DNA of 64,000 nucleotides. Source: Myxococcota bacterium (GTDB taxonomy: Bacteria > Myxococcota > XYA12-FULL-58-9 > JABJBS01). The DNA lies in contig JAYZAY010000043.1 in the NCBI GenBank assembly GCA_036339465.1, positions 2,833-66,832 on the forward strand, written 5' to 3'. A program made the translations under genes and the position numbers. The notes below the pieces were generated by a model. The model was not told the DNA's origin. It saw only the letters and a list, made by a program, of their open reading frames with translations, and did no database searches. Shown one piece after another: positions 19,712 to 45,406 of this stretch. Position 1 is the first letter of the stretch, and each line of letters begins with the position of its first letter.

Positions 19712-20069
19712 AATGATTGGGAGTCCCATCCACACCGACGAGGGTGTAATACCAAGAATGCGGTCCCCGCCCAATGGCGGGCCAACAGGTTCTGAACCTG
19801 GAATCCCAGGTGGGTACGGCCTCTGGAGTTTTAGGCTTCTCGGTTGCATATAGCCCGAGCTTGCACACCACTCCACGAACAGCCATTCCCGTAATCTTAA
19901 AGTGTTGGTTCACGCACGCTCTTGGTAAACCACACACTGGGCAGGGCCGCAAAATCAAACCAAGGGGGGTTCACACCTTTCCTTGATCATCACACCAAAT
20001 AGTCGCCCACAAACATTGTCTCGTCAATCAATTAAGTGGTGGGATAAATTTGTGGTCATGTAATAGTTC

Positions 20070-20110
20070 TTGACAATACCTAAATTGACAATATTGCCTC
20101 AATTGGCAAT
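20070..20110 (+). promoter_or_regulatory. Three direct repeats TTGACAAT / TTGACAAT / TTGGCAAT at 15-18 bp spacing, 30 bp upstream of the 20141 ORF. Candidate operator or promoter
   Basis: Seen directly at 20070-20077, 20085-20092 and 20103-20110. Contains TTGACA -35-like hexamers. Confidence 0.25.
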
Positions 20111-20140
20111 GAACCAAAAAAAAATATCCAGGAGTACCTC

Positions 20141-20473
20141 ATGCAACTTTTCACTTTGGCACTCTTAACGTCCTCGCTCCTCGGAGCAGTGGATCCGGAA
20201 ACAGATCTCACGCTCGTCCCTGGATCCGTCGCCCTAGAAGAACCTCGGCGTTACGAGTCACCGCGAAACTACGACGACACCCTTAAATATATGCGCGCCG
20301 TAACCACAAAAACGCGGACCAAACTCCGGCGAATCGTGAATCGACCAGGACTCCGAGCCCACCACATTGCCAGCCGCGATCCCAAAACAAAATGGGAGGG
20401 CGTCAATATATACCAATGGAAAGGGCACATTCGTTATTTCATTTTACTACGCCAAGACACACCCAAAAAATAG
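20141..20473 (+). CDS. Small secreted hypothetical protein (110 aa)
   Basis: SD aggag 8 nt upstream. N-terminal signal peptide MQLFTLALLTSSLLGAV. Confidence 0.5.
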   Translation: MQLFTLALLTSSLLGAVDPETDLTLVPGSVALEEPRRYESPRNYDDTLKYMRAVTTKTRTKLRRIVNRPGLRAHHIASRDPKTKWEGVNIYQWKGHIRYFILLRQDTPKK

Positions 20474-20499
20474 GATTACCCCTTCCTTAGGGCACCAAC

Positions 20500-21453
20500 C
20501 TATCGAGGCCTACCCTTGAGATATTCGGGGCCATCATCCTCAACCTCAACTTCCTCCTTCTCTATTTCCGGTCTTAGAACCTCCCTCAATATTTCCGTAT
20601 CTCGTTTGGTGGCATCGTCCACCGTTTCGAGGGTTCTCGGCATCACGTCCCGTTGATCAATAACGATCTCCACCCGCCGATTTCTAGCGCGGCCAGTCGA
20701 TGTCTTATTCTCCCCCAAAGGTCTTGTGGCACCATGACCATTGAGAACGAAACGCGCTGGAGACAAGACTTGCTCTTTCAATAGCGCATGGATTACCGAA
20801 AAGGCCCGCGACCCGGAGAGCTCCCAGTTCGACCTAAACCGCTTACTTTTCATGGGGGTATTGTCCGTATGCCCCGACACCGAAATCGCCCCCTCTATTT
20901 TCGCCAGTGCATCCCTAAGCCGTTTCGCCACCGGCATGAATTGCTGCTTTAGGTCGGCACTCCCTGCCGAAAACGAGCCACTTTGTAGAATTCGTACCGT
21001 GATCATACGCTCGCGAACTTCCAGCTCAATCTGGCGCCTCATAATCTCGGGCTTCAATAGTTTCTTGAGTTTGTCAGCATCGATGACGGTTTTCTTTTGT
21101 AGCTCTTTCTCCAATGCATCAGCCTGGGTCAATATATCGTCCACACTCAAGTCCTGCAAAGCTGACTGCGGAGGTGCACCCAACCCCTTGGCCAATCCCT
21201 CCGCCATGGCCTTGAATTTTTCGACATCGATGGTCGCCATACTTAAAAGCATGACGAAAAAACACATGAGCAGCGACATCAAGTCGGCGAAGGTTGTGAC
21301 CCACATGGGGGCACCGGGATCCGCCTCTTTTTCAAGAGGACTCTCGGGCTCTTCATCGCCATGGTCACCACCACGTGAAGGAGCCTCTCCTTTTGGGGGA
21401 GGGCTTTGCTCTGGCTCCTTCTCGGTGAGCGCTTTATCCTCTTGTTCTGCCAA
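20500..21453 (-). CDS. motB: MotB-family stator/OmpA-like protein, paralogue 1, with an acidic N-terminal extension
   Basis: MotB plug/TM motif PMWVTTFADLMSLLMCFFVMLLSMA with the conserved Asp. C-terminal OmpA-like peptidoglycan-binding domain (SGHTDNTPM...NRRVEIVI). About 48 aa of E/P-rich sequence precede the TM. Confidence 0.8.
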   Translation of the reverse strand: MAEQEDKALTEKEPEQSPPPKGEAPSRGGDHGDEEPESPLEKEADPGAPMWVTTFADLMSLLMCFFVMLLSMATIDVEKFKAMAEGLAKGLGAPPQSALQDLSVDDILTQADALEKELQKKTVIDADKLKKLLKPEIMRRQIELEVRERMITVRILQSGSFSAGSADLKQQFMPVAKRLRDALAKIEGAISVSGHTDNTPMKSKRFRSNWELSGSRAFSVIHALLKEQVLSPARFVLNGHGATRPLGENKTSTGRARNRRVEIVIDQRDVMPRTLETVDDATKRDTEILREVLRPEIEKEEVEVEDDGPEYLKGRPR

Positions 21454-21633
21454 TGGAATACCGTTTCCTCTAAAAGCTTTGTTCCTTAATTATTCACAAA
21501 ATACCATCGCAAAACCAAGCATGTCCTTTAGTTCTTGCATTTTCGTCCAATTGAGAGACATATCAAAAGAAGCGTGCGTTTCGGACAACAATGAACCTCA
21601 ATACCCCTACACCCAAGCGATGATCGTTTAAGC

Positions 21634-22689
21634 ATGACTTCAATACCGGGAAATCCTAAGGGGACCGATTCTGGCGAAGGTGAAAATACCCCTTCGGGGG
21701 AATCGGTCCAAAACAATTCAGGGACAAATTCCGACCCGACAAAACCAAACTCAGCCCCCGAAACACCCAAGCGCGGCATCTCCGTGGAAGAGGCGCAAGC
21801 TCTTGCCGCTCCGACACCTCCCAACGATGACGACGACGACGATGAAGAGCCCCCAGGTCCCCCACGCGAGGACGAAGGAGGCGGCGCCCCTCGCTGGGTG
21901 ACAACCTTCGCCGACTTGATGTCGCTCCTCATGTGTTTTTTCGTCATGCTCGTCGCATCGGCCAACCTGGAAAAAACCACCTTCAAAGAAATGGTCGAAT
22001 CCATGCACGAAGGCTTCGGAATTTCAGATTCCAAAAAGATGGAAGAATTTACCATCACCGATGTGCTATCCCAAGCCGACCTCCTCAAGGCAGCCAAACA
22101 GGAAAAATCCCGTAAACAAGCCGCCAAACTTAGGGAGGTTTTGAAACGCGAGATCGTTGAGGGCAAAATTGAGGTAGAAAGCGGCGTCGAAAAAATAACC
22201 ATCCAAGTACTCTCTGCAAGTTCCTTTAGCTCCGGCTCCGCCAACCTCAAATCGGGCTTTAAACCTGTGGCCAAAAAGATCCGAGAATCTCTCATCAATA
22301 TACCCGGGGTCATCACCATATCGGGTCACACAGACAACACCCCCATCCACTCAAGAAAGATTCGTTCAAACTGGGAATTGTCATCAGCACGGGCCTTCTC
22401 CGTCATGCACGAGCTACAAAAAAGTCAGAAGCTTCCAGCCGACCGATTTATATTAAGAGGCTATGCCGACACTCGCCCCAGAGTGCCAAACAATTCAGCT
22501 GCCAATCGGTCCAAGAATCGCCGAGTTGAGATTATGGTCGATCAAAGAGAGAGCTCACAACAGCCAGGCGCCCATGGCCAAAAACAAGACGGAGAAACCA
22601 AGCCAGAAAAGGAACCGATCATCATCAACGCCGACACAATGGAACAATTTGAGAACGAGACCATCCACAAACTCTTGGAGGAGAAATAG
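21634..22689 (+). CDS. motB: MotB-family stator/OmpA-like protein, paralogue 2, with a long disordered acidic N-terminal extension
   Basis: APRWVTTFADLMSLLMCFFVMLVASA, then SGHTDNTPIHSRKIRSNWELSSARAF and NRRVEIMV. About 90 aa of low-complexity sequence (DDDDDDEEPPGPPREDEGGG) precede the TM. Confidence 0.8.
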   Translation: MTSIPGNPKGTDSGEGENTPSGESVQNNSGTNSDPTKPNSAPETPKRGISVEEAQALAAPTPPNDDDDDDEEPPGPPREDEGGGAPRWVTTFADLMSLLMCFFVMLVASANLEKTTFKEMVESMHEGFGISDSKKMEEFTITDVLSQADLLKAAKQEKSRKQAAKLREVLKREIVEGKIEVESGVEKITIQVLSASSFSSGSANLKSGFKPVAKKIRESLINIPGVITISGHTDNTPIHSRKIRSNWELSSARAFSVMHELQKSQKLPADRFILRGYADTRPRVPNNSAANRSKNRRVEIMVDQRESSQQPGAHGQKQDGETKPEKEPIIINADTMEQFENETIHKLLEEK

Positions 22690-22712
22690 ACCGATGACCG
22701 CCGAAGAAACAA

Positions 22713-25442
22713 CTATTCCACATCCCATACTCGGATAATTCGGTCTGCCCCACCCGAGTAAAGAAGCTTACCCCCAGGTTCAAACCTCACAGCCATCACC
22801 GACCCCTGATGACCGGTATATTTAGCAACCTCGACGCCAGTGGCGACCCGCCAGATGCGCACAGTGCCATCATCGGATCCTGTGGCCAACAAAACACCAT
22901 CGGATGAAAAGTCCACCGCTCTAACCCCGCCCGTGTGTCCAAAAATATTCCGAATTAAACTGCCTTTTTTCCCGTTCCAAAGCCTTAAGGACAAATCGAA
23001 ACCAGCACTGGCCACCGTGAGACTCTTTTTTCGTGGGGAAAATGCTAGTTCCGAAATCACGTGCTTATGTTTCTCCAAACGATGAGTGATGTCTCCCGAA
23101 CCAGCCCTAACCACAACCACTTCCTTATCCGTAGCCAAGGCAAAAAATCGGCCATTCGCAGAACTGGCCACGCTTCGAACCGGCTTCTTAAAGCGTATCA
23201 TCTCCTTACGTAATACCCCTGACTTGGCCCCCCAAACTAAGACTCGACCTTCCTTATCCACAGAAACCAAAGACCGGCCATCTCGACTAAAGGCAACCCC
23301 GTAAACCCAATCATCATGTTCTGCGAGTTCGTGTTTCTCAGACCAATCCTCCGCCGACCAAACCTTGATGGTTTTGTCTCGACTACCTGAAGCGAGTAGA
23401 GAACCATCCTTATTCACAACCAGATCTTCAATCGCACCTGTGTGCCCACCAAGCTCCTCAATTGCTTTCCCGCTTTTGACATCCCAAACTTTAATATTTC
23501 CGCCCAAGTCGCCGGTCGCAATCTTTTGCCCTCCAAGCGCCACCATCGCTGTAATACCTTCTTCGTGACCCTTCAAACGCATACGCTCTTGACTTAGCTG
23601 AACGTCCCAAACCCGTATACGGTCGTCGAGACCGGCCGAGAGGACCAACTTATTATCTGACGAAACATCCAGCCCAATAACACCCTGCTTATGGGCCCGT
23701 AACACCCTTAGAATCTTTTTCTCATTGACATCCCAAACTCGGATAGTCCAATCATTGCTGGCCGACAAGAGAACGCTATCCCCTGCGGCAAATTTGAGAC
23801 GCGTTACGACATCTTCATGCCCTTCTAAGCGATGCAATAACTTCGTCCCCTCCTTATTAAAGAGATAGATATAATTGCCGCCAGCAACAGCCAACAGGTC
23901 AAGCTCACTGGCCCACTCCATGGCTTCAACAACCCCCCTATTGAACGGAATTTTCTTGAATTGCTCCCCCGATTCCGTTTTCCACCAGGCAAAGCTCTGG
24001 TCCCAACTTCCGGTCCCTATATAAGCATCATCCGGAGAAAAGCTGAGGGCTCGGATATCCCGTTTGTGCGCTTGCTTGGCCCAAATCATTTTCTCTTTTT
24101 CAATCAAATATAGCGCTAATTTTCCATCGAGCCCTGAGGCGACAAAACGCGTACCATCGTGACTAAAGGCCAAGCCAATCACACCTGAACCAGGAAACGC
24201 ATATCTCCGCACAACTCTCAGGGTTTCCAAATCCCAAAGCCGAATATACTTACCTCGGTCTGAGGAAACCAGGAAGCGTCCTTCACGATCCGCAGCCACC
24301 GCTAACACCTCATCCAGATGGCCTGCAAGAGTCTCCTGATGCTCAAGTTTACGATTCCACAGCTCAATCCGGTCCCCCGAACAGGAAACCACCCATTGTC
24401 TTTTTGGGACCCATGTCGCACATCGAACCGCACCCCTATGCTTATAGCTGAAGCTCCGAGGTAAGATATCCATATCCCAAACAAGAACTTGATTCTTAAA
24501 TGAAGCCGTCACCGCTTGTTTTCGACGGCGATTCATCGCCCCAACCATCGCGGCTTCTCCCACGAAAAAGAGTCCCCGCTCCTCTCCAGTCCGAACATTC
24601 CAATAACGAATGGTTTGGTCACCCGAGAGAGAGAAAAACGTCTGACGGCTCTTCATCCACCCCAGGGAAAGGACCTCTCCCAAATGCTCTTCAATACGGT
24701 AATTTCTCTCCGGACGCCCCATATAGTGGAGATTAATGTTGGCGTCCCAGCCCGCCGAAATCACGAGGTCACGAGACGGCTCGTATAACACGGAAGAAAC
24801 CACTCCTTCATGGGGACTCCAGCGCTCCAAAACCTTAAGCTTATCAATGTTTATCCTCAATACCGCCCCTTGGTCAGTTCCCACCAACATCCAATCCCTA
24901 CCTTTAACGAATTCGACCACCGTCGCCGCATGCCCCGAAGGCAGCCGGACCTTCTTTAAAAGTCGTCCCTTCCAGCTCCATAGCCTAAGCTCGCCTTCAC
25001 GCCCCCCAGAAACCAAACGATTTTCCGACACAAACTCGACCGAGGTTACCGCCCCACGGTGCTGGCCCATTTGCACTTTAAGTTTGCCGTTTTCCCAAAA
25101 CCAAATCCGAATTGCGCCATCAAAGGCACCCGTGGCAACGAATCTTTCGTTGGGAGAGATTGCCATCGACACCACCCCGCCCAGGTTCCCTTCGATAATC
25201 CGTTCTAATTTTCCGGTTCTCCGGTTCCAAACACGCAATTGTCCAGTTGAACCGCCGCTGATAATATTGCGATCGCGATTCAGCAACGAGACCACTCGAA
25301 TGGTCCCCTTATGCCCCTTTAGCTTCAGTGTTGGCTGCCCAGACCGCTGTCCAAACACGCCGGCGGGTAAGCAAATCAAGAGCAAGCAAAAAATAAGTAA
25401 TGAACTCCGCACCACAACCCCCAAAAAACACTCCCCAAGCAT
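22713..25442 (-). CDS. Secreted WD40-repeat protein (about 20 WD repeats, likely three beta-propellers)
   Basis: N-terminal signal peptide MLGECFLGVVVRSSLLIFCLLLICLPAGVFGQ. Reiterated GH..V..V.FS.DG..L.SGS.D.T.R.WD units across 909 aa. Confidence 0.85.
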   Translation of the reverse strand: MLGECFLGVVVRSSLLIFCLLLICLPAGVFGQRSGQPTLKLKGHKGTIRVVSLLNRDRNIISGGSTGQLRVWNRRTGKLERIIEGNLGGVVSMAISPNERFVATGAFDGAIRIWFWENGKLKVQMGQHRGAVTSVEFVSENRLVSGGREGELRLWSWKGRLLKKVRLPSGHAATVVEFVKGRDWMLVGTDQGAVLRINIDKLKVLERWSPHEGVVSSVLYEPSRDLVISAGWDANINLHYMGRPERNYRIEEHLGEVLSLGWMKSRQTFFSLSGDQTIRYWNVRTGEERGLFFVGEAAMVGAMNRRRKQAVTASFKNQVLVWDMDILPRSFSYKHRGAVRCATWVPKRQWVVSCSGDRIELWNRKLEHQETLAGHLDEVLAVAADREGRFLVSSDRGKYIRLWDLETLRVVRRYAFPGSGVIGLAFSHDGTRFVASGLDGKLALYLIEKEKMIWAKQAHKRDIRALSFSPDDAYIGTGSWDQSFAWWKTESGEQFKKIPFNRGVVEAMEWASELDLLAVAGGNYIYLFNKEGTKLLHRLEGHEDVVTRLKFAAGDSVLLSASNDWTIRVWDVNEKKILRVLRAHKQGVIGLDVSSDNKLVLSAGLDDRIRVWDVQLSQERMRLKGHEEGITAMVALGGQKIATGDLGGNIKVWDVKSGKAIEELGGHTGAIEDLVVNKDGSLLASGSRDKTIKVWSAEDWSEKHELAEHDDWVYGVAFSRDGRSLVSVDKEGRVLVWGAKSGVLRKEMIRFKKPVRSVASSANGRFFALATDKEVVVVRAGSGDITHRLEKHKHVISELAFSPRKKSLTVASAGFDLSLRLWNGKKGSLIRNIFGHTGGVRAVDFSSDGVLLATGSDDGTVRIWRVATGVEVAKYTGHQGSVMAVRFEPGGKLLYSGGADRIIRVWDVE

Positions 25443-25526
25443 TGAATCAAGTGCAGTTTTAGGTCAGAGCGCACTCTTTGACCAACAGTACCCCATGGGC
25501 TACCATAAAAGAGAGGAGAGAGGTTC

Positions 25527-26720
25527 TTGGCTTCAAAAGAAAAATCGATAAAACCGACTATTTTGTGTGTCGACGACGAAATCGCCGTCCTCGAAGGCCT
25601 TCAACTGAATCTCCGGCGAGCGGGAACTGTCCATACCGCCACCAGCGGAAAAGAAGGCCTAGAACGCATCTCCAACAGCGAGAAGCCCTTCGCGATCATT
25701 ATTTCCGATATGCGAATGCCCGAAATGAATGGCGCCGAATTTCTCCAACACGCCCGCCAAATAAGCCCCAATTCGGTTCGAATTCTGCTCACCGGACAAA
25801 CCGAAATAGAATCTGCGATTTCTGCCGTCAACGATGGTGGCATCTTCTGCTACCTCCAAAAGCCCTGCCCCAAAGAAAAACTTTTGGAAATCATCGAGGA
25901 GTCCACCAAAGAATTTCAACTTCGAGAAGAAGAAAGAGAAATTCTCGAGCAAACACTTTGGTCGAGCGTCAGCGTCATGTCCGAGATTCTTGGAGTCGTC
26001 AACGAAGCCGCGTTTGGGCATGCCGAACTCATGCGCGTCGTGGTCCTTCATCTCGCCAAAAGCCTCGCGTTGGAGAACGTCTATGAATTCGAATTAGCAG
26101 CCATGCTCTCACAGCTAGGATGCATGGGAATGCCTAGTGAGAGCATCGAAAAGATCCACACGCCTTCCCAAATGACAAGAGAAGAACAAGAAGCCTATCG
26201 CCAACACCCCAAGATAGGCCAAGAATTGCTTGAAAAAATACCTCGACTTGAAGACGTGGCCCTTATGATCGGAAACCAGTTCCGGAAATTCCCCCCCGTG
26301 GAATTGGACCAGCCGGTTTATCTCGAAAACCGGAGGGTCTTGGGCGCAAAAATGCTTCGAATAGCTGTCGATGTCAGCCGATGGCTCGCCAGCGGCAAAA
26401 CCCTACCCGAAATCCAAGACCGAATAGACGGCCGACCACAAAATTACGACACGCGACTTATTGAGGCCCTTAGGAGCCTCAAGCTTCCGAAACCCAAGAA
26501 AGTATTACAGATGCTCAACGTCGACGAAATTGGTGTGGGCATGGAACTCGCGGCCGTCGTGGAAACCATCACCGGAACACGGGTTTTCCTCCCAGGTAAA
26601 ATCGTGACTCCCTTGGCAATAGAAAGGCTGATTCGCTTTCACCAAGGCGTCGGTATCAAAGAACCACTCAGAGTGTTGGCGCCGCCACCAAAAGCTTCAC
26701 CAAAATTGATTCAAACTTAG
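25527..26720 (+). CDS. Response regulator: REC domain plus degenerate (probably catalytically inactive) HD-GYP domain
   Basis: REC: ILCVDDE...IISDMRMPEMNG...KPC. The C-terminal domain aligns to HD-GYP architecture (HPKIGQELL, AKMLRIAVDVSRW), but HD is replaced by SQ (LSQLGCMG) and the HHExxDGSGYP block is absent (GNQFRKFPP). Confidence 0.7.
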   Translation: MASKEKSIKPTILCVDDEIAVLEGLQLNLRRAGTVHTATSGKEGLERISNSEKPFAIIISDMRMPEMNGAEFLQHARQISPNSVRILLTGQTEIESAISAVNDGGIFCYLQKPCPKEKLLEIIEESTKEFQLREEEREILEQTLWSSVSVMSEILGVVNEAAFGHAELMRVVVLHLAKSLALENVYEFELAAMLSQLGCMGMPSESIEKIHTPSQMTREEQEAYRQHPKIGQELLEKIPRLEDVALMIGNQFRKFPPVELDQPVYLENRRVLGAKMLRIAVDVSRWLASGKTLPEIQDRIDGRPQNYDTRLIEALRSLKLPKPKKVLQMLNVDEIGVGMELAAVVETITGTRVFLPGKIVTPLAIERLIRFHQGVGIKEPLRVLAPPPKASPKLIQT

Positions 26721-26815
26721 AATTGTAGGCTAAAAACACATATGATAACTAGGCAACACGGGCAGGAATCGACACCACCTTGTTTTGCGCTCTCCCCATT
26801 TGGAGGAATGTTTCG

Positions 26816-27583
26816 GTGCCAGATTACGCAACTCTTATTGGGCTTGTAGGCTCCTTTGCCATTGTGGGAATGGCAATTATGCAAGGTGAAGGCGGACTCA
26901 TGCTCTTCATCAACGTGCCTTCCCTCCTCATCGTCATTGTAGGGAGTATCTTCGTCGCACTTATGAAATTCGGCCTCAAGCAGTTCTTAGGTGCCATCGG
27001 CGTAGCTCTGAAGGCTTTCTTCTTCAAACTTGAACAACCTACCGATCTAATCGAACAAGCCGTTAACCTTGCCAACAAGGCCCGAAAAGAAGGCATCATC
27101 TCCCTTGAAGAAGAAACCATCACCAATGGCTTCCTGCAAAAGGGCGTTGAATTTCTAGTAGATAATGTAGATGGCAAGGTTATCAAAACCACCCTCTACA
27201 AAGAAATGAATCAAGCCATGGAGCGCCATGACGGAGGTATCAAGATATTCAAAGCCATCGGCGACGTGGGCCCTGCAATGGGAATGATTGGTACACTTGT
27301 GGGACTCGTACAAATGCTCGCGGCCATGGACGATCCGAAAACCATCGGCCCCGCAATGGCGGTAGCACTCCTAACAACCCTTTATGGCGCGATACTCGGT
27401 AATATGTTCGCCTTACCTATCGCCGATAAATTGACCCTCAGAAATCAAGAGGAGCGAATTGTTAAGTTACTCCTAATCGACACAATCCTAGCGATCCAAG
27501 CTGAACTCCACCCCAGAGTTTTGGAAGAATCTCTTCAGCCCTATCTCGCTGAGTCGAAGCGGAAGAAAGAAGAGGAAAAGTAA
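26816..27583 (+). CDS. motA: MotA/PomA-family flagellar stator protein (MotA/TolQ/ExbB superfamily)
   Basis: AIGDVGPAMGMIGTLVGLVQML and AVALLTTLYGAILGNMFALPIADKL motifs. 4-TM topology. SD ggagga 8 nt before GTG 26816. The ORF track ATG at 26780 lacks an RBS. Confidence 0.85.
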   Translation: MPDYATLIGLVGSFAIVGMAIMQGEGGLMLFINVPSLLIVIVGSIFVALMKFGLKQFLGAIGVALKAFFFKLEQPTDLIEQAVNLANKARKEGIISLEEETITNGFLQKGVEFLVDNVDGKVIKTTLYKEMNQAMERHDGGIKIFKAIGDVGPAMGMIGTLVGLVQMLAAMDDPKTIGPAMAVALLTTLYGAILGNMFALPIADKLTLRNQEERIVKLLLIDTILAIQAELHPRVLEESLQPYLAESKRKKEEEK

Positions 27584-27589
27584 TTACTC

Positions 27590-28411
27590 ATGACCGATGA
27601 AACAGACATCGAGACACCTCCATCAAGTTCTTCCGACAATGGCGATTTCGAACAAACTCTTGAAACCGCCCATCTCGTTCTGAGAATTGTTCAAAGCGTG
27701 ATCGAAGCCCAAGCCGCGTCTCAACCCGACTCACCCAACTACTATGAAATTAGCGAAGCCGTAAACGCACTTCAAAAGACCCCGGGACTCCTAGAAAACA
27801 TTCTCAAGGGCGAGCTGCAGCCCAAGCAAGTTATCCGGTATGTTCGCGATCCCTTTGGCCGAATTATCGTCGCTCCATTCGCAAAATTATTTCAAATAGC
27901 CCCCTCCGAAAACAACGCTAAAAAAGACACACCACTTTCGAGGCGGTTTCTCCCTGGCTTTTTTGTGGCCATTCGACTGATGATTGGCGGAGACCTATAC
28001 GAAAGGCTCCATCAACAGGCACAACATATCCTTGAGGAGCACCGCCATAGATTCCCAAATCAGGACGATGAAGAGTTCTGGAAAACCATCTACAAAGATT
28101 CACGCTCACGCGAAATACAGGCAAATCTGTATTCCGTCGTTGCATCAAGATTTTCCCCCTTCGAAAAACGACTCGACTGGTTCTTAAACATCATCAATAA
28201 GAAAGCGCCTGGTTCAAAAAAAGTCAGCCAAGATACACAAGTTGAGCCCTTCGATACGAAGGCACTATTGACGGTATTTCGTGCGATTTACCTAGAAAAC
28301 GATCCGCAAACCCTCAAGGGGCACTTTGACGAGTTTCTCAAAACAAATCCGCTACAACCAGAACAATCAGAAACATTTCACGGTTGGATCGACCACCTAC
28401 GAAACATCTGA
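27590..28411 (+). CDS. Hypothetical soluble protein (273 aa) in the position normally held by MotB
   Basis: Begins 7 bp after the motA stop with SD agaggaaaag. It has no TM plug and no OmpA domain, and an acidic S/D-rich N-terminus. Confidence 0.6.
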   Translation: MTDETDIETPPSSSSDNGDFEQTLETAHLVLRIVQSVIEAQAASQPDSPNYYEISEAVNALQKTPGLLENILKGELQPKQVIRYVRDPFGRIIVAPFAKLFQIAPSENNAKKDTPLSRRFLPGFFVAIRLMIGGDLYERLHQQAQHILEEHRHRFPNQDDEEFWKTIYKDSRSREIQANLYSVVASRFSPFEKRLDWFLNIINKKAPGSKKVSQDTQVEPFDTKALLTVFRAIYLENDPQTLKGHFDEFLKTNPLQPEQSETFHGWIDHLRNI

Positions 28412-28416
28412 CCCAT

Positions 28417-29652
28417 TTAGGTGCGAAACTCAGCCGCCATACGTTGTATTTGCAAAGTATTAGAGATGATTGTTTGAGCCGCAGTCTCAGCCCGATTAAC
28501 GGCGTCAACAGTCTGCTCAACCGCTCCCGCCACCTGGGAAATACTATCTGCAATCTCCGTCGTACCACCCGCCGCTTCATGTAGATGGCGCCCCATTTCC
28601 TGAGCCGTAACGGTCTGTTCCTGAACCGAACTGGCAATGGTCGTTTGGTATTCATTCACTTGAGTAATGATCTCCATAATTTGGCCAATGGCAGTCACCG
28701 CCCCATCCATGTCCGATTGGATTGCGGTAATCTGTAGCGTAATGGATTCAGTTGCCTTGGTGGTTTCTTTGGCGAGCTCCTTCACCTCGTTGGCAACAAC
28801 CGCAAAGCCCTTACCCGCTTCACCGGCACGCGCGGCCTCAATCGTCGCATTGAGCGCGAGGAGGTTTGTTTGTTCCGCAATGCTCCCAATAACCTTAACC
28901 ACCGATCCCACTTCTTTACTGGTGACATCTAGCTTACTGACCATCGCTGTGGTTGTCTCGGCAATATCCACTGCAGATTGCGCCACCTTCGATGCTTGAC
29001 GAGCATTGGCGGCAATCTCCTTAATATTTGAGCCCATTTCTTCCACACCCACCGCCACAGTCTGGACATTCTCACTCACCTGAGAGGCCGTCGCCGAAAG
29101 GCGACTTGTCTCCGCAGACGACGCACTGGAATCCGCGACCATTTTTTGGCTCGTTACCTGGAGCTCTCGAATTGAGCCACCCAAATTATCCTTGGAATCA
29201 TTGATTGAACCTACCAGGGTCCTAACACCCGTTAAGGCAGTACGAAGCTTCGTCGCCATCGCGCCAAACTCCGCACCAACATTTAAATCCCCTCGGCTCA
29301 AAGTATCCAAAAGAGTATCGCTCGCCCCTCCCCCTTCGGCCGCTCCTTTCATCGTCATCTTCGCCGTACCTACAATGGCACCCCAGCTGACCAAGAAAAT
29401 CCCCAGCAGAGAACCCAAGGGGACTTCCTGCCCACTGTCGTTCTTTTTACTCGAAAGCGCAGCTTCACCATCCTGAGCATCGGCATCAGTCTCCACCACC
29501 TCGGCCATTTCTGCGGGACCCGAAGAAGAAACCGAGTAACTCGCAAACACCGAAAACCCCACCGCTAACATCGAGGCCAAAGCAAGTTTCGTAAAACCAT
29601 CCGGTACCCCGCTACTCTCGCTTCCAAAATCGCTCTCTGAATCAGCAACCAT
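28417..29652 (-). CDS. Methyl-accepting chemotaxis protein with a very short periplasmic loop
   Basis: Highly conserved MCP signalling domain [35 protein letters not shown]. Two N-terminal TM helices. Confidence 0.9.
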
Positions 29653-29928
29653 TGCTTCGCCCCAGTCATCACTATGATTAAGATAAGAACACGAAATACC
29701 AACTAACTTTAACCCATCTTGGAGAACGAGTGCGAGCTTTCAGAAAAAAAGAAAGCCGATTTCCTGCGCCATGCCCTTAAATACAAGAAAGGGGGCATCA
29801 ATCTCTTGGCTCAAAGGAGAAAGACAAAGCCATATTCGCGACATCAGTGGCTATTTCGATTTAACAAGTGTATGGGGCACCGTCATTGGAGATCAGGTCA
29901 CGAATATTAGGTAATGAGAGGGCTATTC

Positions 29929-30294
29929 ATGTCAGTATCCGTCGACCCAGAGGTCATTGAAAGCCTGAAAATGCTGGCGTCTGAAGATGATCCGGATTTC
30001 TTGAAGCTTTTAATCGAAACCTATCTTGAGGACGCACAGGCGCTCTACCAACAACTCGTTGACGCATCTCAGTCGGGAGATTCAAACCTTGCCTGTCGAT
30101 TCGCCCATACCCTCAAATCCAGCAGTGCCAACATGGGCGCGATCCCCCTCGCCAACTATGCAGAATTGGTCGAGGAATCCTTGCGAACCGGTACCGATCT
30201 TCAAGCATTGGTCGATCCAATCCAAAAAATGGGCGAAGAACTCAAACTCGTGGTGAATTATCTAAGAAAAGAGCTCCATGGTACTGGTTTATAG
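29929..30294 (+). CDS. Stand-alone Hpt (histidine phosphotransfer) domain protein
   Basis: Hpt signature AHTLKSSSANMGA. SD gaggg before ATG 29929. The ORF track ATG at 29914 is a less likely start. Confidence 0.75.
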   Translation: MSVSVDPEVIESLKMLASEDDPDFLKLLIETYLEDAQALYQQLVDASQSGDSNLACRFAHTLKSSSANMGAIPLANYAELVEESLRTGTDLQALVDPIQKMGEELKLVVNYLRKELHGTGL

Positions 30295-30425
30295 AGCCAA
30301 TCAATTTTTCAGATAATCGTCATCTTTTAATCGAACTTACTTGACAGAAACGCGCCAAAATTTTAGCAACACGCTGCGCGAACCCGCCAATGTTACATCC
30401 CCTACCGGTCAAAAAGAGGTCCCTC

Positions 30426-32891
30426 ATGAATAAAACCAACCTTCTGCTCTGTTTTATACTCATCGGTTCTCAGGGAGCCTGTATTAAATGGTTTCCGGGT
30501 AAAGTAGGAAGTGGGGTGGCTCGTCTCACGGTCCGAGGCGTCGCTGCTATGTCAACCGTGGTGACCAACGACACCAAATGTGGATTTGATAGTGAAGAGG
30601 TCAAAAGCACCTATGTTCGTGAAGGCGAAGTCGGTGGCACCGGCAAAGTTATTTGGACCGTATCTAACTGTAGCATCGCGCTACCTGAGTGGGTTGAAAC
30701 CAAAACCGCATGCGACGGAGTCGTAACCCGAGCCCGTGGAAACCTGGTTATTTCCGCCCGACGCGTGGTGGAAGGGCGCCTTACGGGTAATCCAGACAAG
30801 CCCGTTGTTCCCACCGGACCAGACACCCTAAGGATAGAAATAACCGACGCCAAATTCGAAAATTTCGAAGTCGAAGACAGCTCAAGCGACAGTAAAATGA
30901 TTATGCTTGACGGGTCAATCAAGGCAGTCGCCATGCCACGTCTTGCTCGCAATATCGATGGAGTTTGCGCCATTGTAACCCCAAACGCACGCCTAGAGGA
31001 TATCCAATACAGCGATGCACTCGTACACGTATTTAGCGGCGGACGAGACTTCGACGTCGAAGTTCAGACCTCAAACATCTGGGCTCAAAATGGTAAGCAA
31101 GGAGACATCGAAAACAAATTAGGTGGAACCATCACCATCTGGGACAGTCAGCGCGACGTCCCCAACGATGGTGACCTACTCAATCCAGACTACGAAGGAG
31201 CGGAATTTTTTGATTCCTATAAGTGCACCGAAGAAATCGCCCTTCCAGAAAGTTTTGCCTGCGACTTGGAACCACGAATCGCCGATGCAGCTTCGAGCCT
31301 AACCATCCGCACCCTTGGTAATCTTATCAAATACACCAATGCCGACGAAGCTTGCGGCTTTGCCAGTCCGGAAGTGAAAGAACAATACGAAAAAGTTGGA
31401 ACAATTGGGTATGCGGATGGAACCGTTACTTGGTCGACTCAAAGGCCCTGCGAATTCAACTTCCCAGAAAAAACAGAAATTTTTGAAGACTGCTCCGGCA
31501 ACAAAACCTTCTTTAAAGGAGCTGTCACGCTTACCGGGAAAAAAGTGGTCGAGGGGATTCTAACCGGAGATCCTGAAACACCCGTAATTCCGAATTCTCA
31601 TCTACCCGCTCAGCTAAGTATCAGCGCATCCTTCAATGATTTCGAGCTTACGGTGAGCAATTCCGATAAGTCGCTTTACTATGAGTCGGGAAGTGTCTCT
31701 GGAACCCTCACCCCCCGCATGATGCTAGACAGCACAACAGGTGCTTGCAGCGTTAGTACGCCTAACGCTGGCTACTCGGAAGTCAAACTTCAAAATATCA
31801 AGGGCATCATCGATTCATCTGGCTCAAGGTTTGATATCAATATTGATAAAGCAAACCTCTACGCAGCCTCGGGGGAATACGAACCCAACTCAAACTTTCT
31901 AGACGGTACCGTAACTATCAACCGTGAAACATACCTCGTGCCCCAGAACCGAGATGACATGATTCTCGATCCAGACTACAACGTAGACATATTCAAAGCG
32001 GGTTACGACTGCCACGAAACAGCCGCCCTTCCCGAAAACAATGAAGAGTGTCAATTCGAAAACATGCTGGCCCAAAACGCTTCACGCCTCGTCATTAAGA
32101 CATTCGGCCTCATCACTAAAACCATCGACAATGATAAAGAATGTGGCTTTGGCAGCATCGACGGCCTCATCCCAGAGGGTCTCAGCAGGAATGAGCAAAA
32201 CCTCTACGACGTACAATGGGACATTAGCCGATGTGTTATCGGTGGAAGCTCCGAAGAGCTCGTTGCCACCGACTGCCATGGAAATGAGTTCTTTTTACAA
32301 GGAACTGCGGAGGTCACAGGAAGTAAGTTTGTGGAAGGAGAAGCTGCTCTGGTCTATCCACCCATTCAGCCAACTCAGCGGGAAGCAGCGATGTTTGATT
32401 TCCAAGAAATCGTGCTCAACAATTTCTCCGCCAAGGAATTCCGAAAAGACCAGGAAGACCCAGAGGCTCACCTCATTATTCACGCCGGAAAACTCGTGGG
32501 TTACTCCCACCCCGTAACCGGTGAGTCAGCATCAACCCCAGACCACTACTTCGTTAAGATTCCCGTTTCGGGATTCAGCGCCGTTCGTCTCGAAGATGCA
32601 GATGTCACCATGGTGAGTGGCAAGAAAAAATTCCGAATGCAAATCAACAGCACTCAACTTGATGCGTTCAACGGCACCCTAGGAGAAAAACACAATTCAC
32701 TCAGCGGAGAATTCACCCTTGGTGGCTCGGTGTTCAGCATCCCCGTGAATGAAAATCAGAAGCAGCTGAATCCCAACTTCGACCAAGATTATTTTGACGA
32801 TAGCTACAGGTGCCTGCCTGACCTCAAAGAGCCAGTCCCTACACCAGCTACACCAACTGACCCAGAAGCAACTTCAACCACGACCAATTGA
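30426..32891 (+). CDS. Large probable lipoprotein built from three tandem copies of a roughly 270-aa Cys-containing domain of unknown function
   Basis: Signal peptide with lipobox-like LIGSQGAC. Three repeats share T/K-(E)CGF-(D/A)S-EVK-..Y...G..G.....W......C.....PE...T.C.G......G.L.I.A..VVEG.LTG.P..PV.P. SD aagagg before ATG 30426. Confidence 0.7.
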   Translation: MNKTNLLLCFILIGSQGACIKWFPGKVGSGVARLTVRGVAAMSTVVTNDTKCGFDSEEVKSTYVREGEVGGTGKVIWTVSNCSIALPEWVETKTACDGVVTRARGNLVISARRVVEGRLTGNPDKPVVPTGPDTLRIEITDAKFENFEVEDSSSDSKMIMLDGSIKAVAMPRLARNIDGVCAIVTPNARLEDIQYSDALVHVFSGGRDFDVEVQTSNIWAQNGKQGDIENKLGGTITIWDSQRDVPNDGDLLNPDYEGAEFFDSYKCTEEIALPESFACDLEPRIADAASSLTIRTLGNLIKYTNADEACGFASPEVKEQYEKVGTIGYADGTVTWSTQRPCEFNFPEKTEIFEDCSGNKTFFKGAVTLTGKKVVEGILTGDPETPVIPNSHLPAQLSISASFNDFELTVSNSDKSLYYESGSVSGTLTPRMMLDSTTGACSVSTPNAGYSEVKLQNIKGIIDSSGSRFDINIDKANLYAASGEYEPNSNFLDGTVTINRETYLVPQNRDDMILDPDYNVDIFKAGYDCHETAALPENNEECQFENMLAQNASRLVIKTFGLITKTIDNDKECGFGSIDGLIPEGLSRNEQNLYDVQWDISRCVIGGSSEELVATDCHGNEFFLQGTAEVTGSKFVEGEAALVYPPIQPTQREAAMFDFQEIVLNNFSAKEFRKDQEDPEAHLIIHAGKLVGYSHPVTGESASTPDHYFVKIPVSGFSAVRLEDADVTMVSGKKKFRMQINSTQLDAFNGTLGEKHNSLSGEFTLGGSVFSIPVNENQKQLNPNFDQDYFDDSYRCLPDLKEPVPTPATPTDPEATSTTTN

Positions 32892-43266: not shown

Positions 43267-43495
43267 ACCCCTTAATTAAGCTCAGCTAACTTCCGGTGTC
43301 AAACAACGTGTACAGCGAGCAAACCTACTTTACAGTTGAATACACCTACATCATTGTAATTTCGAACAAAACAGATGCCATATGTAGGTAAATACACGAC
43401 AATCACTACGGAGAGGTCAGAATGTGGGTTGACAATTCGGTGCAGGACCCGACTAATTGGTATCCCACCGAAGAACGTTCGAGAGGGTACCGACT

Positions 43496-45406
43496 ATGAA
43501 ACAACCGTCCGTGCAGAAAATATTCTTAATCCTAGGATTTTGTACACTCGTTGTCCAAGGCTGTGGAGAAAAGCGTCTTACAGCAATTAACATTCCAACC
43601 AATGGCGTCCAGGAGTGTCAGGAAGACTCGGATTGTCCCGACGGATTGATCTGCGTTAATAGCGAATGCGTTGAGGTCGAGCACTTCGACTGTAAGGGCG
43701 ACGACCTCCCCATTATTTCGGTCGACCCCAGTGAACTCGATTTCGGAGAAGTCATCATTGCAACCACCACCACCAAACCAGTAACCATCACCAATGAGAG
43801 TTCCTGTAACCTTCGTCTGAGCTCCATCGGTCTAGGCAATGATACCACCGCCGGTTTCAAATGCGACCCTTGTGACATGACTCAGGAAGACATCCTTATC
43901 GCTCCACGCCGTAGTTCAGGCATCAACGTAACATACTCCCCCTTGGTTATCGGTGCCGCTTCAGGGACGTTACTCATTAAATCGGATGCCAAAAACGTTC
44001 AAAGTACAAACGGCTTCTTCGAGGTTATGTTAACTGCGCAATACAGCGGAGAACCCAAGCTCTTAGTCGAACCATCCAACCTTAATTTTGGCTATGTCCC
44101 ATTTCAAATCGGTGATACACCAAGCTCAATCACCCAAGAAGTAACCGTCAAAAACGTCGGCACCGGAAATGCGGCCCTGAAAATAGAATATATTACCCTA
44201 CCCCCTGAGCTAGGCTTTACCATTCCAGAATCCTTCGCAGACTTAGACCCATCATCGCCATTACTCCTCTCTCCTTTTAAGGAAAATGCTCCGGAAACGC
44301 TGCTGACTATTCCCGTAACCTTCACCCCTGATCTCAACAAAGAGTTTCGCGCGCGACTCCAAATTCACGCAGATTACGGCAATGGCGAAAAGGATAAGTA
44401 CCCAATTGAATTGACCGGTTCATCCCTTGGTGAGCCCGAAATTGAAGTCACTCCCAATCTCTTGGAATTCAAAGATAGAAATGATGCCCCCATGCGACTC
44501 TATCGTACCGAACAACAAACCGTCTACATTTCCAATAATGGCCAATCCATGCTCGAAATAGACCTTCTCTTGAACGATTTTGAAACCTCGGGTGACTTCG
44601 AAATATCTCCCCCCATTGTTCCGCCCATAATGCCGGGACAACGAGTCGCCGTAAGCGTATTTTATACCCCGACCCTGGTTTTCTCTCCCACTGCCGATGG
44701 TATCCTCACCATTCGCAGCAATGATACCGATGAGAATACCATCAATATAGCCCTCAAAGGTTATGCCACCACCACCGATTCTGACGACGTCCTAAAAGTG
44801 GAAATGGAGTTTACCAACAGCGGAAGTAATTGGGCCTCAGACGATTTCCGTAATGTCGATTTAAGCCTCGACAGTGAACTCGGATTCATCTGTAAAAAGC
44901 CGACATATGGTCAAGCCTCCGACAACACTCTAGCTATAACCGAAAACCCCTGCCAAGACTGGACGAACTCCGGTTCACTGGGCACGGCCACTTGGCTCTC
45001 ACTTGGAGTAAACGAAGAACCGGAAAGAGTCATTCTCTACGGCCTAGGCCAAGACCTCGCCGACCGAAAGGTGTTCAAAGTTTATACCCACTATGTCGAA
45101 GACTGTAAGCGTGTGGCCACCGGTCAGGTAGCCAATCTCGCCGGTGTTGGCGTCAGTATCCTACTAGGCATTTTGGGTGGGCAGGTTGGTGTGCCAATCA
45201 CATTACCACCAGACCAAATTAGTAGCCTCATTGAAGGTAACTGCTTCGAGCATGCCTCTAGCCAAGTGAAAGTGACCGCCTACGTCAATGACGCCGTTCT
45301 CACCACCACACAAATTGGTCTTGGAAGTAAAGGTGACCGCAAGAAGGCCATCGAGTTCTGTCGTAAAAACGGACAATTCCTCCTAGGAAGTGACGAATGC
45401 AACTAG
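43496..45406 (+). CDS. Large secreted (probably lipo)protein with reiterated ASH / choice-of-anchor-D-like beta-sandwich domains
   Basis: Signal peptide MKQPSVQKIFLILGFCTLVVQGC. Repeats follow the pattern LDFGEVIIATTTTKPVTITNES.CNLRLSSIGL....F.C.P......I.P..S..I.V.YSP...G...G.L.I.SD. SD gagagg before ATG 43496. Confidence 0.7.
   Translation: MKQPSVQKIFLILGFCTLVVQGCGEKRLTAINIPTNGVQECQEDSDCPDGLICVNSECVEVEHFDCKGDDLPIISVDPSELDFGEVIIATTTTKPVTITNESSCNLRLSSIGLGNDTTAGFKCDPCDMTQEDILIAPRRSSGINVTYSPLVIGAASGTLLIKSDAKNVQSTNGFFEVMLTAQYSGEPKLLVEPSNLNFGYVPFQIGDTPSSITQEVTVKNVGTGNAALKIEYITLPPELGFTIPESFADLDPSSPLLLSPFKENAPETLLTIPVTFTPDLNKEFRARLQIHADYGNGEKDKYPIELTGSSLGEPEIEVTPNLLEFKDRNDAPMRLYRTEQQTVYISNNGQSMLEIDLLLNDFETSGDFEISPPIVPPIMPGQRVAVSVFYTPTLVFSPTADGILTIRSNDTDENTINIALKGYATTTDSDDVLKVEMEFTNSGSNWASDDFRNVDLSLDSELGFICKKPTYGQASDNTLAITENPCQDWTNSGSLGTATWLSLGVNEEPERVILYGLGQDLADRKVFKVYTHYVEDCKRVATGQVANLAGVGVSILLGILGGQVGVPITLPPDQISSLIEGNCFEHASSQVKVTAYVNDAVLTTTQIGLGSKGDRKKAIEFCRKNGQFLLGSDECN

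What the first reader, a model, noticed from the sequence alone, without database searches (positions are those of the whole stretch)
20500..28411. Non-canonical stator island: two divergent MotB paralogues, an orphan MotA followed by an unknown protein, plus WD40 and a dead HD-GYP regulator
Canonical stators are encoded as adjacent motA-motB pairs. Here two MotB-family genes (20500-21453 minus, 21634-22689 plus) share a 180-bp divergent promoter region and have no MotA/TolQ/ExbB partner. Both carry the plug/TM motif WVTTFADLMSLLMCFFVML with the proton-relay Asp and an OmpA peptidoglycan-binding domain. Both also have unusually long acidic disordered cytoplasmic N-termini (about 48 and 90 aa, including DDDDDDEEPPGPP). 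The only MotA (26816-27583) lies 4 kb away. It is preceded by a REC plus degenerate HD-GYP regulator and followed, 7 bp later, by a soluble 273-aa protein with no MotB features. A signal-peptide-bearing WD40 protein of about 20 repeats sits between them. One reading is a single MotA ring that can pair with either of two alternative MotB subunits, under c-di-GMP or phosphorelay control. Another is a stator-like energiser for something other than the flagellum, such as gliding or a surface machine. Either would be undescribed.
Basis: partly seen in the sequence, partly recalled or inferred. Interest (0 to 1): 0.7.

Follow-up and report, generated by a model that had tools for sequence, protein, structure and literature searches.

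The report
Stator module: PomA, two PomBs, unknown partner
This marine uncultured bacterium encodes a sodium-type flagellar motor stator as a conserved four-gene set (one PomA, two old PomB copies and an uncharacterised cytoplasmic protein always placed right after PomA), which has been split here by inserted genes, so the "orphan MotA" is not really orphan; the unknown partner is the new part.

Summary
PomA (26816-27583) passes NCBI's PomA equivalog cutoff. It keeps the rotor-contact and Na+-site residues. Both MotB-like genes are intact PomB-type proteins with TM-Asp, plug and OmpA domain.

The "orphan MotA / partnerless MotB" reading fails. In modules whose PomA is 62-63% identical, the four genes lie together as pomB1<- ->pomB2-pomA-X. 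In the window, the WD40 gene and the REC/degenerate-HD-GYP gene sit between pomB2 and pomA and look like lineage-specific insertions. Both PomB paralogues have their own orthologues in related contigs, so the duplication is old and both copies are maintained.

One MotA with two MotBs is already described in Aquifex aeolicus.

The undescribed element is X (27590-28411). It starts 4-11 nt after pomA in every locus where both gene ends are known. It is cytoplasmic and all-alpha (AF2 pLDDT 80). It has no Pfam, NCBIfam or PDB relative. It belongs to a family of at least 237 clusters, some with an N-terminal receiver domain.

My reading is a flagellar Na+ stator with alternative or mixed PomB anchors and a cytoplasmic PomA-linked regulator. 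A flagellar role is not proven, because no other flagellar genes were seen. Verdict: new variant of a known kind, with moderate interest.

The parts
20141..20473 (+). Small 110-aa protein with a signal-peptide-like N-terminus, convergent with pomB1. It may be an associated periplasmic protein. It is peripheral to the module.
   Evidence: ORF. No Pfam hit. Conserved at the same position in L012 and L014 at 40-48% identity.
20500..21453 (-). pomB1: PomB-type stator B subunit of 317 aa. It has a 50-aa acidic cytoplasmic tail, a TM segment with Asp57, a plug and an OmpA-like peptidoglycan-binding domain.
   Evidence: MotB_plug and OmpA hits. NCBIfam MotB family PRK08944 scores 238.9 bits against a cutoff of 259. 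Orthologues in L012 and L014 at 63-70% identity. The minus-strand PomB of L039/L040 is 52-54% identical to it, against 42-45% to B2.
21454..21633 (.). 180-bp divergent intergenic region between pomB1 and pomB2.
   Evidence: Coordinates. The divergent arrangement is conserved in L012, L014, L039, L040, L041 and L042. The consensus promoter scan gave no more hits than chance.
21634..22689 (+). pomB2: second PomB-type stator B subunit of 351 aa. It has an 87-aa acidic, Pro-rich tail, the same TM/plug string as pomB1, and an OmpA-like domain.
   Evidence: MotB_plug and OmpA hits. PRK08944 scores 243.9 bits. It is 50% identical to pomB1 over 223 aa. Orthologues in L012 and L014 are 55-57% identical and have tails that vary widely in length and charge.
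22713..25442 (-). 909-aa WD40 beta-propeller protein with a hydrophobic N-terminal signal-like segment. It is a lineage-specific insertion between pomB2 and pomA.
   Evidence: WD40 and propeller families. Hydropathy peak at residues 1-16. Present in L012 and L014 at only 33-35% identity. Absent from the compact modules.
25527..26720 (+). Response regulator with an intact receiver domain (Asp61) and a conserved degenerate, non-catalytic HD-GYP-like domain.
   Evidence: Response_reg and HD_5, the latter matching profile positions 2-109 of 170. NosR-family model scores 207 bits against a cutoff of 400. Orthologues in L012, L014 and L020 (46-49% identity) all have SQ in place of HD and GNQxR in place of HHExxDGxGYP.
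26816..27583 (+). pomA: stator A subunit of the Na+ type, 255 aa.
   Evidence: NCBIfam PomA equivalog scores 365.7 bits against a cutoff of 341. GTG start with a GGAGGA Shine-Dalgarno sequence. It is 58-59% identical to Parashewanella PomA. Invariant columns include R90, E98, P153, T160, T187, T188 and P201.
27590..28411 (+). X: 273-aa cytoplasmic all-alpha protein of an uncharacterised family, probably translationally coupled to pomA.
   Evidence: - It starts 6 nt after the pomA stop codon.
- No TM segment.
- No Pfam, NCBIfam or PADLOC hit.
- 237 representative homologues at E<=1e-3.
- AF2 model with pLDDT 80.3 and 13 helices.
- Immediately downstream of pomA in L012-L017, L020, L022 and L039-L043.
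28417..29652 (-). Methyl-accepting chemotaxis protein, convergent with X. A conserved neighbour.
   Evidence: MCPsignal E 1.6e-31. Conserved in L012 and L014 at 70-74% identity.
29914..30294 (+). Stand-alone Hpt phosphotransfer protein. A conserved neighbour.
   Evidence: Hpt E 2e-11. Present at the same position in L012 and L014.

Best explanation
The region encodes a PomAB-family, sodium-type flagellar stator organised as a conserved four-gene module: pomB1 <- -> pomB2 - pomA - X. In this lineage the module has been opened by insertion of a WD40 gene and a REC/degenerate-HD-GYP response-regulator gene between pomB2 and pomA.

Shown:
- PomA and both PomBs have all sequence hallmarks of working stator subunits.
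- The two PomBs are old paralogues, each kept with its own orthologues.
- X is always encoded immediately after pomA.
- X is cytoplasmic, helical and of unknown family.

Inferred:
- One PomA pentamer ring can accept either PomB, as homodimers or as a B1/B2 heterodimer. The membrane/plug segments are identical. The cytoplasmic tails, periplasmic linkers and C-terminal tails differ. The result would be two kinds of stator unit with different anchoring or recruitment properties, as proposed for Aquifex MotA/MotB1/MotB2.
- X is made in step with PomA and acts on the cytoplasmic face of the stator as an assembly factor, brake, clutch or regulator.
- X may be under phosphorelay control. Relatives of X are fused to receiver domains, and a receiver protein, an Hpt protein and an MCP flank the genes here.
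For: - PomA reaches the equivalog cutoff at 365.7 bits against 341.
- Invariant columns R90, E98, P153, T160, T187/T188 and P201 correspond to Vibrio PomA R88, E96, P151, T158, T185/T186 and P199. This correspondence rests on established knowledge of PomA, counted on the Parashewanella sequence.
- Both PomBs carry plug and OmpA domains. The invariant stretch TFADLMSLLMCFFV, the SGHTD motif, RSNWELS and NRRVE are all present.
- B1 and B2 orthologue pairs exist in L012 and L014. Contiguous pomB|pomB-pomA-X modules exist in L039-L042.
- pomA-X spacing is 4-11 nt in all loci where both ends are known.
- The X family is large, and 5 of 61 long members carry REC.
- The Aquifex operon motA/motB1/motB2 is a precedent: the TM regions are 97% identical and the periplasmic regions are divergent (PMC4525482).
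- Uncultured Myxococcota MAGs can encode flagella (10.1101/2021.07.06.451402).
Against: - No other flagellar gene (fliG, flhA, flg and so on) was seen in the 64-kb window or in the +/-10 kb around any related module.
- Cultured Myxococcota lack flagella.
- The PomBs fall just below the NCBIfam subfamily cutoff, at 239 and 244 bits against 259.
- Close X homologues exist without pomA upstream (L021 and L023).
- The large alphaproteobacterial branch of the X family sits next to nadE, not next to mot genes. A stator-specific role for X is therefore not general.
- Genomes of this group probably carry two such modules (accession series). "One A for two B" is thus true per module, not necessarily per cell.
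- No interaction was tested.
Confidence: 0.6

Rival explanations
1. The module is a stator-like ion-driven motor that powers something other than a flagellum in a non-flagellated Myxococcota lineage, for example gliding, a surface machine or an envelope process. X and the periplasmic WD40 protein would be its output partners.
For: - No flagellar genes appear in the window or in any related locus.
- The MAG is labelled Myxococcota.
- A conserved non-MotB partner follows PomA.
- The PomBs are below the NCBIfam cutoff.
Against: - PomA meets the flagellar PomA equivalog cutoff and scores only 22.8 bits on TolQ, whose cutoff is 221.
- It is 58-63% identical to gammaproteobacterial PomA proteins that sit in canonical pomAB pairs.
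- It keeps the residues known to contact FliG.
- PomA gives no hit to Zorya ZorA, and the PomBs hit ZorB only weakly at 70-77 bits.
- The WD40 gene is absent from the compact modules.
Confidence: 0.15
2. The stator part is ordinary: a flagellar PomAB with a redundant duplicated PomB. X is merely a co-transcribed neighbour whose own function is unrelated to the motor, as suggested by its alphaproteobacterial relatives next to nadE. WD40, REC-HD-GYP, MCP and Hpt are unrelated neighbours.
For: - X-family genes in Rhodospirillales are stand-alone and lie near nadE, gltX and cysS.
- Two close X homologues lack an upstream pomA.
- X evolves much faster than PomA, at 26-35% against 62-76% identity.
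Against: - pomA-X adjacency with 4-11 nt spacing is kept in every PomA of this clade for which downstream DNA exists. That covers at least 8 distinct loci, and it persists even when all other neighbours change, as in L016, L012 and L039.
- Both PomB paralogues keep their own orthologues and all functional motifs. This argues against simple redundancy or decay.
Confidence: 0.2
3. PomB1 and PomB2 are obligate partners that form a B1/B2 heterodimer inside each PomA5 ring. They would make one kind of asymmetric stator rather than two alternative stators.
For: - The two genes always occur together, divergently transcribed from one short intergenic region, in every module seen.
- Their TM/plug segments are identical.
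- The A5B2 stator is intrinsically asymmetric (general knowledge of stator structures).
Against: - There is no direct evidence.
- In Aquifex each MotB chimera worked on its own with MotA (PMC4525482).
- Divergent promoters also allow independent regulation.
Confidence: 0.2

Closest known systems
Vibrio/Shewanella PomA-PomB sodium-driven polar flagellar stator
   Same: - PomA is 58-63% identical to gammaproteobacterial PomA and passes the equivalog model.
- The PomBs share the PomB-specific TM string (W..TFADLMSLLMCFFV), the Pro-rich segment before it, the plug and the OmpA domain.
   Different: - The gene order is pomB-pomA, not pomA-pomB.
- There are two PomB paralogues per PomA.
- The PomBs lack a periplasmic linker segment of roughly 50 aa (the larger of two gaps in the alignment) that Parashewanella PomB has.
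- The N-terminal tails are long and variable.
- An extra conserved gene, X, follows pomA.
- Here pomB2 and pomA are separated by 4.1 kb of inserted genes.
Aquifex aeolicus motA/motB1/motB2 operon (Takekawa et al. 2015, PMC4525482)
   Same: One A subunit gene goes with two B subunit genes. The TM regions of the two B proteins are (nearly) identical while their periplasmic parts diverge. The stator is Na+-coupled.
   Different: - Aquifex has a single co-directional operon ordered A-B1-B2 and has no X gene.
- Here the PomBs are divergently transcribed and lie upstream of pomA.
- The lineages are unrelated.
Cytoplasmic stator-binding regulators (YcgR, MotI/DgrA and FlgZ PilZ proteins; the EpsE clutch)
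   Same: This is an analogy of proposed role only: a soluble cytoplasmic protein acting on MotA/PomA, possibly under second-messenger or phosphorelay control. The comparison rests on general knowledge.
   Different: - X has no PilZ or glycosyltransferase domain and no detectable sequence or fold similarity to any solved structure.
- None of those regulators is encoded as a fixed downstream partner of motA.
- Binding of X to the stator is untested.
HD-GYP response regulators (RpfG type) and their degenerate relatives
   Same: A REC domain followed by an HD_5-type domain.
   Different: The HD and HHExxDGxGYP motifs are replaced by SQ and GNQxR, and this is conserved across orthologues. The protein is therefore not a c-di-GMP phosphodiesterase. 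A receptor or adaptor role is only conjecture.

Membership tests
Flagellar stator A subunit, PomA type (NCBIfam NF006527) | Full-length match above the curated equivalog cutoff | tested here: met
   365.7 bits against a cutoff of 341, covering residues 15-266 of the long ORF and profile positions 2-252 of 254.
Flagellar stator A subunit, PomA type | Cytoplasmic charged residues that contact FliG (Vibrio R88, E96), the conserved prolines (P151, P199) and the Na+-site threonines (T158, T185, T186) | tested here: met
   Invariant columns R90, E98, P153, P201, T160, T187 and T188 in an alignment with Parashewanella PomA. The residue roles come from established knowledge.
Flagellar stator A subunit, PomA type | Presence of a flagellar rotor (fliG and the rest) in the same genome | not testable with these tools
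   Only a 64-kb window and +/-10 kb of related loci are available, and none contains flagellar genes.
Flagellar stator B subunit, MotB/PomB | Single N-terminal TM helix with the essential Asp, followed by the plug helix | tested here: met
   MotB_plug at E 7e-18 and 2e-16. One TM-like segment in each protein. Invariant TFADLMSLLMCFFV including Asp57 in B1 numbering.
Flagellar stator B subunit, MotB/PomB | C-terminal OmpA-like peptidoglycan-binding domain | tested here: met
   OmpA at E 3e-14 and 4e-14. Invariant SGHTD, RSNWELS and NRRVE.
Flagellar stator B subunit, MotB/PomB | Score above a curated NCBIfam MotB/PomB cutoff | tested here: not met
   The best model is PRK08944, a MotB-family subfamily model. 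Scores are 238.9 and 243.9 bits against a cutoff of 259. This is a near miss, explained by the missing linker segment.
One-MotA/two-MotB stator system (Aquifex type) | One A gene and two B genes in one conserved cluster, with B proteins alike in the TM region and divergent in the periplasmic part | tested here: met
   Compact pomB|pomB-pomA modules in L039-L042. B1 and B2 are 50% identical overall with an identical TM string. Functional pairing was not tested.
HD-GYP c-di-GMP phosphodiesterase | Metal-binding HD dyad and HHExxDGxGYP motif | tested here: not met
   SQ and GNQ(F/H/L)R stand at those positions in all four orthologues. The HD_5 match stops at profile position 109 of 170. The NosR-family model scores 207 bits against a cutoff of 400.
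Zorya anti-phage system (ZorA/ZorB) | A ZorA-type MotA homologue with a long C-terminal tail, plus ZorB and effector genes | tested here: not met
   PomA and X give no PADLOC hit. The PomBs hit ZorB models at only 70-77 bits.
TolQR / ExbBD / AglRQS-type non-flagellar motors | An A subunit matching TolQ/ExbB models, and a B subunit of TolR/ExbD type without an OmpA domain | tested here: not met
   TolQ scores 22.8 bits against a cutoff of 221. Both B subunits carry MotB_plug and OmpA.
Any described protein family for X | Significant sequence or fold match to a curated family or a solved structure | tested here: not met
   - Pfam and NCBIfam: none.
- PADLOC: none.
- PDB profile search: best E 0.87.
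- Foldseek PDB: none at E<=1e-3, TM<0.25.
- The AFDB library was not available.

The most novel reading that the evidence does not exclude
X founds a new family of cytoplasmic stator-associated regulators. It would be an all-alpha domain with no known fold, and elsewhere it serves as the output domain of response regulators. Made together with PomA, it would bind the PomA cytoplasmic domain to control stator assembly, torque or engagement in response to a phosphorelay, and perhaps to c-di-GMP. The same PomA ring would meanwhile be fitted with either of two PomB anchors, or with a B1/B2 heterodimer. Together this would be a previously unknown layer of flagellar motor control.
Probability: 0.3. 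Interest if true: 0.7.

Novelty: new variant of a known kind. Interest (0 to 1): 0.5.

Why it matters
Stator units are where flagellar power output is set. Known cytoplasmic controllers are few: PilZ brakes and the EpsE clutch. A protein of unknown fold that is genetically tied to PomA across divergent marine lineages, and whose relatives are receiver-domain outputs in Alphaproteobacteria, is a concrete candidate for a new controller. It also gives a first functional handle on a family of at least 237 clusters with no annotation.

The module offers a second, independent natural case of one A subunit with two B subunits, besides Aquifex. That is useful for asking how B-subunit periplasmic and cytoplasmic regions tune recruitment.

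The correction also has practical value. Apparent "orphan" mot genes can be one module split by insertions, and this becomes visible only through comparative synteny.

Tried and rejected
- **Zorya or other defence system:** rejected. PomA and X give no PADLOC hit, and the ZorB hits are weak.
- **TolQR/ExbBD-type motor:** rejected.
- **X as a diverged MotB:** rejected. It has no TM segment, no plug or OmpA domain, and an all-alpha model.
- **Active HD-GYP enzyme:** rejected.
- **Promoter and terminator scan of 19900-30400:** counts were no better than shuffles, so it is uninformative.
- **Genome-contig scan with PomA:** it returned only gammaproteobacterial and other canonical loci at 59% identity or less. 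The lineage itself is not among the species representatives reached by the patterns used.
- **Flagellar genes in the rest of the window:** none were found.
- **Acidic N-terminal tails as a conserved functional feature:** rejected, because orthologues have basic tails.
- **Literature on split motA/motB loci:** the S. meliloti paper I opened did not state the operon layout. That precedent is therefore cited only as general knowledge.

Full report
**Observation**

- Both MotB-like proteins carry MotB_plug and OmpA domains. Their best NCBIfam model is the MotB-family model PRK08944, at 239 and 244 bits, just under the cutoff of 259.
- They are 50% identical over 223 aa.
- An alignment with a canonical Parashewanella PomB shows an invariant TFADLMSLLMCFFV segment that includes the essential Asp. 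It also shows the peptidoglycan-binding motifs SGHTD, RSNWELS and NRRVE.
- The MotA gene starts at GTG 26816, behind a GGAGGA site. It passes NCBI's PomA equivalog cutoff at 365.7 bits against 341.
- PomA keeps the columns that correspond to Vibrio PomA R88 and E96 (FliG contact), P151 and P199, and T158, T185 and T186 (Na+ site). The residue roles come from established knowledge.
- The next gene, which I call X (27590-28411), starts 6 nt after the pomA stop codon. It has no TM segment and no Pfam, NCBIfam or PADLOC hit.
- The WD40 protein has a hydrophobic N-terminus.
- The response regulator has an intact receiver domain. Its HD-GYP-like domain has SQ in place of HD and GNQxR in place of HHExxDGxGYP. 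The same substitutions occur in all four orthologues I could align, so the degenerate state is itself conserved.

**Where the window comes from**

X and PomA are identical to proteins of an NCBI MAG labelled "Myxococcota bacterium", on a 69.6-kb contig from marine metagenomes. Related PomA proteins carry the label "Deltaproteobacteria bacterium" MAG. The rest of the window holds housekeeping and envelope genes and no flagellar genes.

**Synteny changes the interpretation**

- Contigs whose PomA is 72-75% identical (L012 and L014) have the same layout as the window. In order they carry a small secreted protein, pomB1(-), pomB2(+), a 910-aa protein(-), an extra pentapeptide-repeat gene, REC-HD_5, pomA, an X-like gene, an extra AMP-binding gene, an MCP(-) and Hpt.
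- L020 has REC-HD_5, pomA and X. L022 has pomA and X. L016 has pomA and X in an entirely different neighbourhood, with no pomB within 10 kb.
- Modules whose PomA is 62-63% identical (L039-L042) are compact: pomB(-) | pomB(+) - pomA - X-like, with nothing in between.
- Their X-like gene is homologous to X, with blastp E values of 1e-20 to 1e-36.
- Their minus-strand PomB is closer to the window's B1 (52-54%) than to B2 (42-45%).
- The conserved unit is therefore pomB1<- ->pomB2-pomA-X. The B1/B2 duplication predates the divergence of these modules. The WD40 and REC-HD-GYP genes are later insertions between pomB2 and pomA.
- The "orphan" MotA and the "partnerless" MotBs are one module pulled apart.
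- NCBI accessions of the two PomA types fall in the same series: MBT6432697 with MBT6432957, and MBT6489598 with MBT6489611. The split and compact modules also occur in the same assemblies and sequencing runs. I infer that single genomes carry both module types. "One A for two B" therefore holds per module.

**The two PomBs**

- Each paralogue has its own orthologues: 63-70% identity for B1 and 55-57% for B2. All functional motifs are intact. Both copies are therefore maintained.
- They differ in three places: the cytoplasmic N-terminal tail, the segment after the plug, and the C-terminal tail.
- The tails are long, at 50 and 87 aa, and acidic here. In L012_B2, L039 and L040 they are Lys-rich and basic, and their length varies up to about 190 aa. 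Only the Pro-rich segment and the GAP-W motif next to the membrane are conserved. I therefore read the tails as disordered and weakly constrained.
- Both paralogues lack a periplasmic linker segment of roughly 50 aa (the larger of two alignment gaps) that Parashewanella PomB has.

**Precedent**

[quoted passage not shown] The two MotBs are 97% identical in the N-terminal/TM region and 23% identical in the periplasmic region. Each worked with MotA as a chimera in E. coli, and the stator is Na+-driven (PMC4525482). The one-A/two-B idea is therefore not new.

Pseudoalteromonas loci show the pomB-then-pomA order without X. The gene order alone is therefore not special either.

**X**

- An exhaustive HMMER search found 237 representative homologues at E<=1e-3.
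- The conserved core spans residues about 85-210. Its motifs are RDPFxR, SRRxLPGFF, a conserved Trp, and KRxxWF..IN.
- All named members are "hypothetical".
- Five of 61 longer members carry an N-terminal receiver domain. The X domain can therefore be a two-component output.
- In Rhodospirillales-type genomes the gene stands alone beside nadE, gltX and cysS, not beside mot genes.
- Two close homologues (L021 and L023) lack an upstream pomA.
- An AF2 model built on 62 sequences is confident, with pLDDT 80.3 and pTM 0.68, and is all-alpha with 13 helices.
- In the PomA clade studied here, every PomA with downstream DNA available is followed by an X gene. The spacing is 4-11 nt wherever both gene ends are known, and this holds even when all other neighbours differ. 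That is the strongest evidence that X works with PomA.

**Mechanism**

I read the region as a Na+-type flagellar stator. One PomA5 ring can take PomB1 or PomB2, or a heterodimer of both, which would give units with different anchoring or recruitment. X is co-produced with PomA and acts on the cytoplasmic face of the stator. It may be under phosphorelay control, given the REC-X fusions elsewhere and the REC protein, Hpt and MCP next to it here.
- The gene identities, the conservation and the linkage are shown.
- The pairing of PomA with each PomB, the binding of X and the regulation are inferred.
- The flagellar assignment rests on PomA's equivalog score, its 58-63% identity to PomA proteins in canonical pomAB pairs and its retained FliG-contact residues.
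- A report that uncultured Myxococcota MAGs encode flagella makes the assignment plausible (10.1101/2021.07.06.451402).
- It is not proven, because no other flagellar gene is visible in any locus.

**Rivals**

- **Non-flagellar energiser** (confidence about 0.15). This is disfavoured by the PomA evidence and by the negative TolQ and Zorya tests.
- **X as an unrelated passenger** (about 0.2). This is disfavoured by the invariant adjacency to pomA.
- **Obligate B1/B2 heterodimer** (about 0.2). This is compatible with everything seen. It is a sub-variant of the main model rather than an exclusive alternative.

**Verdict**

Its one-A/two-B logic is already known. The WD40 and dead HD-GYP genes are accessory.

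The new element is the PomA-linked protein X of unknown fold and family. I rate this a new variant of a known kind, with interest 0.5.

Noticed in passing
window 20141-20473 (+); L012 1599-1961; L014 1475-1822: A small protein of 110-120 aa with a signal-peptide-like N-terminus lies convergent with pomB1. It is conserved at the same position in two related contigs (40-48% identity) and has no Pfam hit. It could be a periplasmic stator accessory, or it could be unrelated.
   Followed up: partly
window 28417-29652 (-) and 29914-30294 (+): An MCP with two N-terminal hydrophobic segments and a stand-alone Hpt protein are conserved just downstream of pomA-X in L012 and L014. No CheA or CheY is in view.
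   Followed up: partly
window 30390-32891 (+); L012 from 15500; L014 from 15490: An 833-aa protein with no Pfam hit and visibly repeated modules lies here. At the same position, related contigs encode a giant ORF of more than 4200 aa, also without Pfam hits.
   Followed up: no
L039-L043 versus L012-L015; NCBI accessions MBT6432697/MBT6432957 and MBT6489598/MBT6489611: The split and compact stator modules appear to coexist in the same MAGs, judging from shared accession series and shared assemblies or sequencing runs. Such genomes would carry two PomA, four PomB and two X genes.
   Followed up: partly
L018, L019, L030 and the locus of P0299: In Rhodospirillales-type genomes the X-family gene is a conserved stand-alone gene. 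It lies divergent from or adjacent to NAD synthase (nadE), gltX and cysS. L019 has two tandem X-family copies.
   Followed up: partly
X-family proteins P0131, P0136 and three others (alignment A5): There are recurrent N-terminal receiver-domain fusions to the X domain. Single cases of SIR2 and alpha/beta-hydrolase fusions also occur.
   Followed up: partly
L008-L011 (Pseudoalteromonas), L007 (Phenylobacterium MAG): These loci hold a second type of PomB/PomA pair in the order pomB then pomA. The PomA is 36-40% identical to the window's PomA, and there is no X gene.
   Followed up: partly
L016 6672-7379 and 13668-14441: Two PilZ-domain proteins and a single-domain receiver protein lie within 4 kb of the pomA-X pair in this lineage. 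This hints at c-di-GMP control of the same motor.
   Followed up: no
L039 5102-5854; L041 7138-7887: A REC + ArdA-like protein and an ion-channel gene (Ion_trans) sit next to pomB1 in the compact module. This neighbourhood is conserved in four contigs.
   Followed up: no
window 1-64000: GC skew is negative in every 2-kb bin, and the cumulative skew reaches -4.96. Long antisense ORFs overlap pomB1 and pomB2 (20741-21631 on + and 21528-22319 on -). They are most likely non-coding shadows of the real genes.
   Followed up: no
window 43457-47745 (+): Two adjacent large proteins carry HYDIN/ASH/Cep192-type Ig-like domains. Such domains are otherwise typical of eukaryotic ciliary proteins.
   Followed up: no
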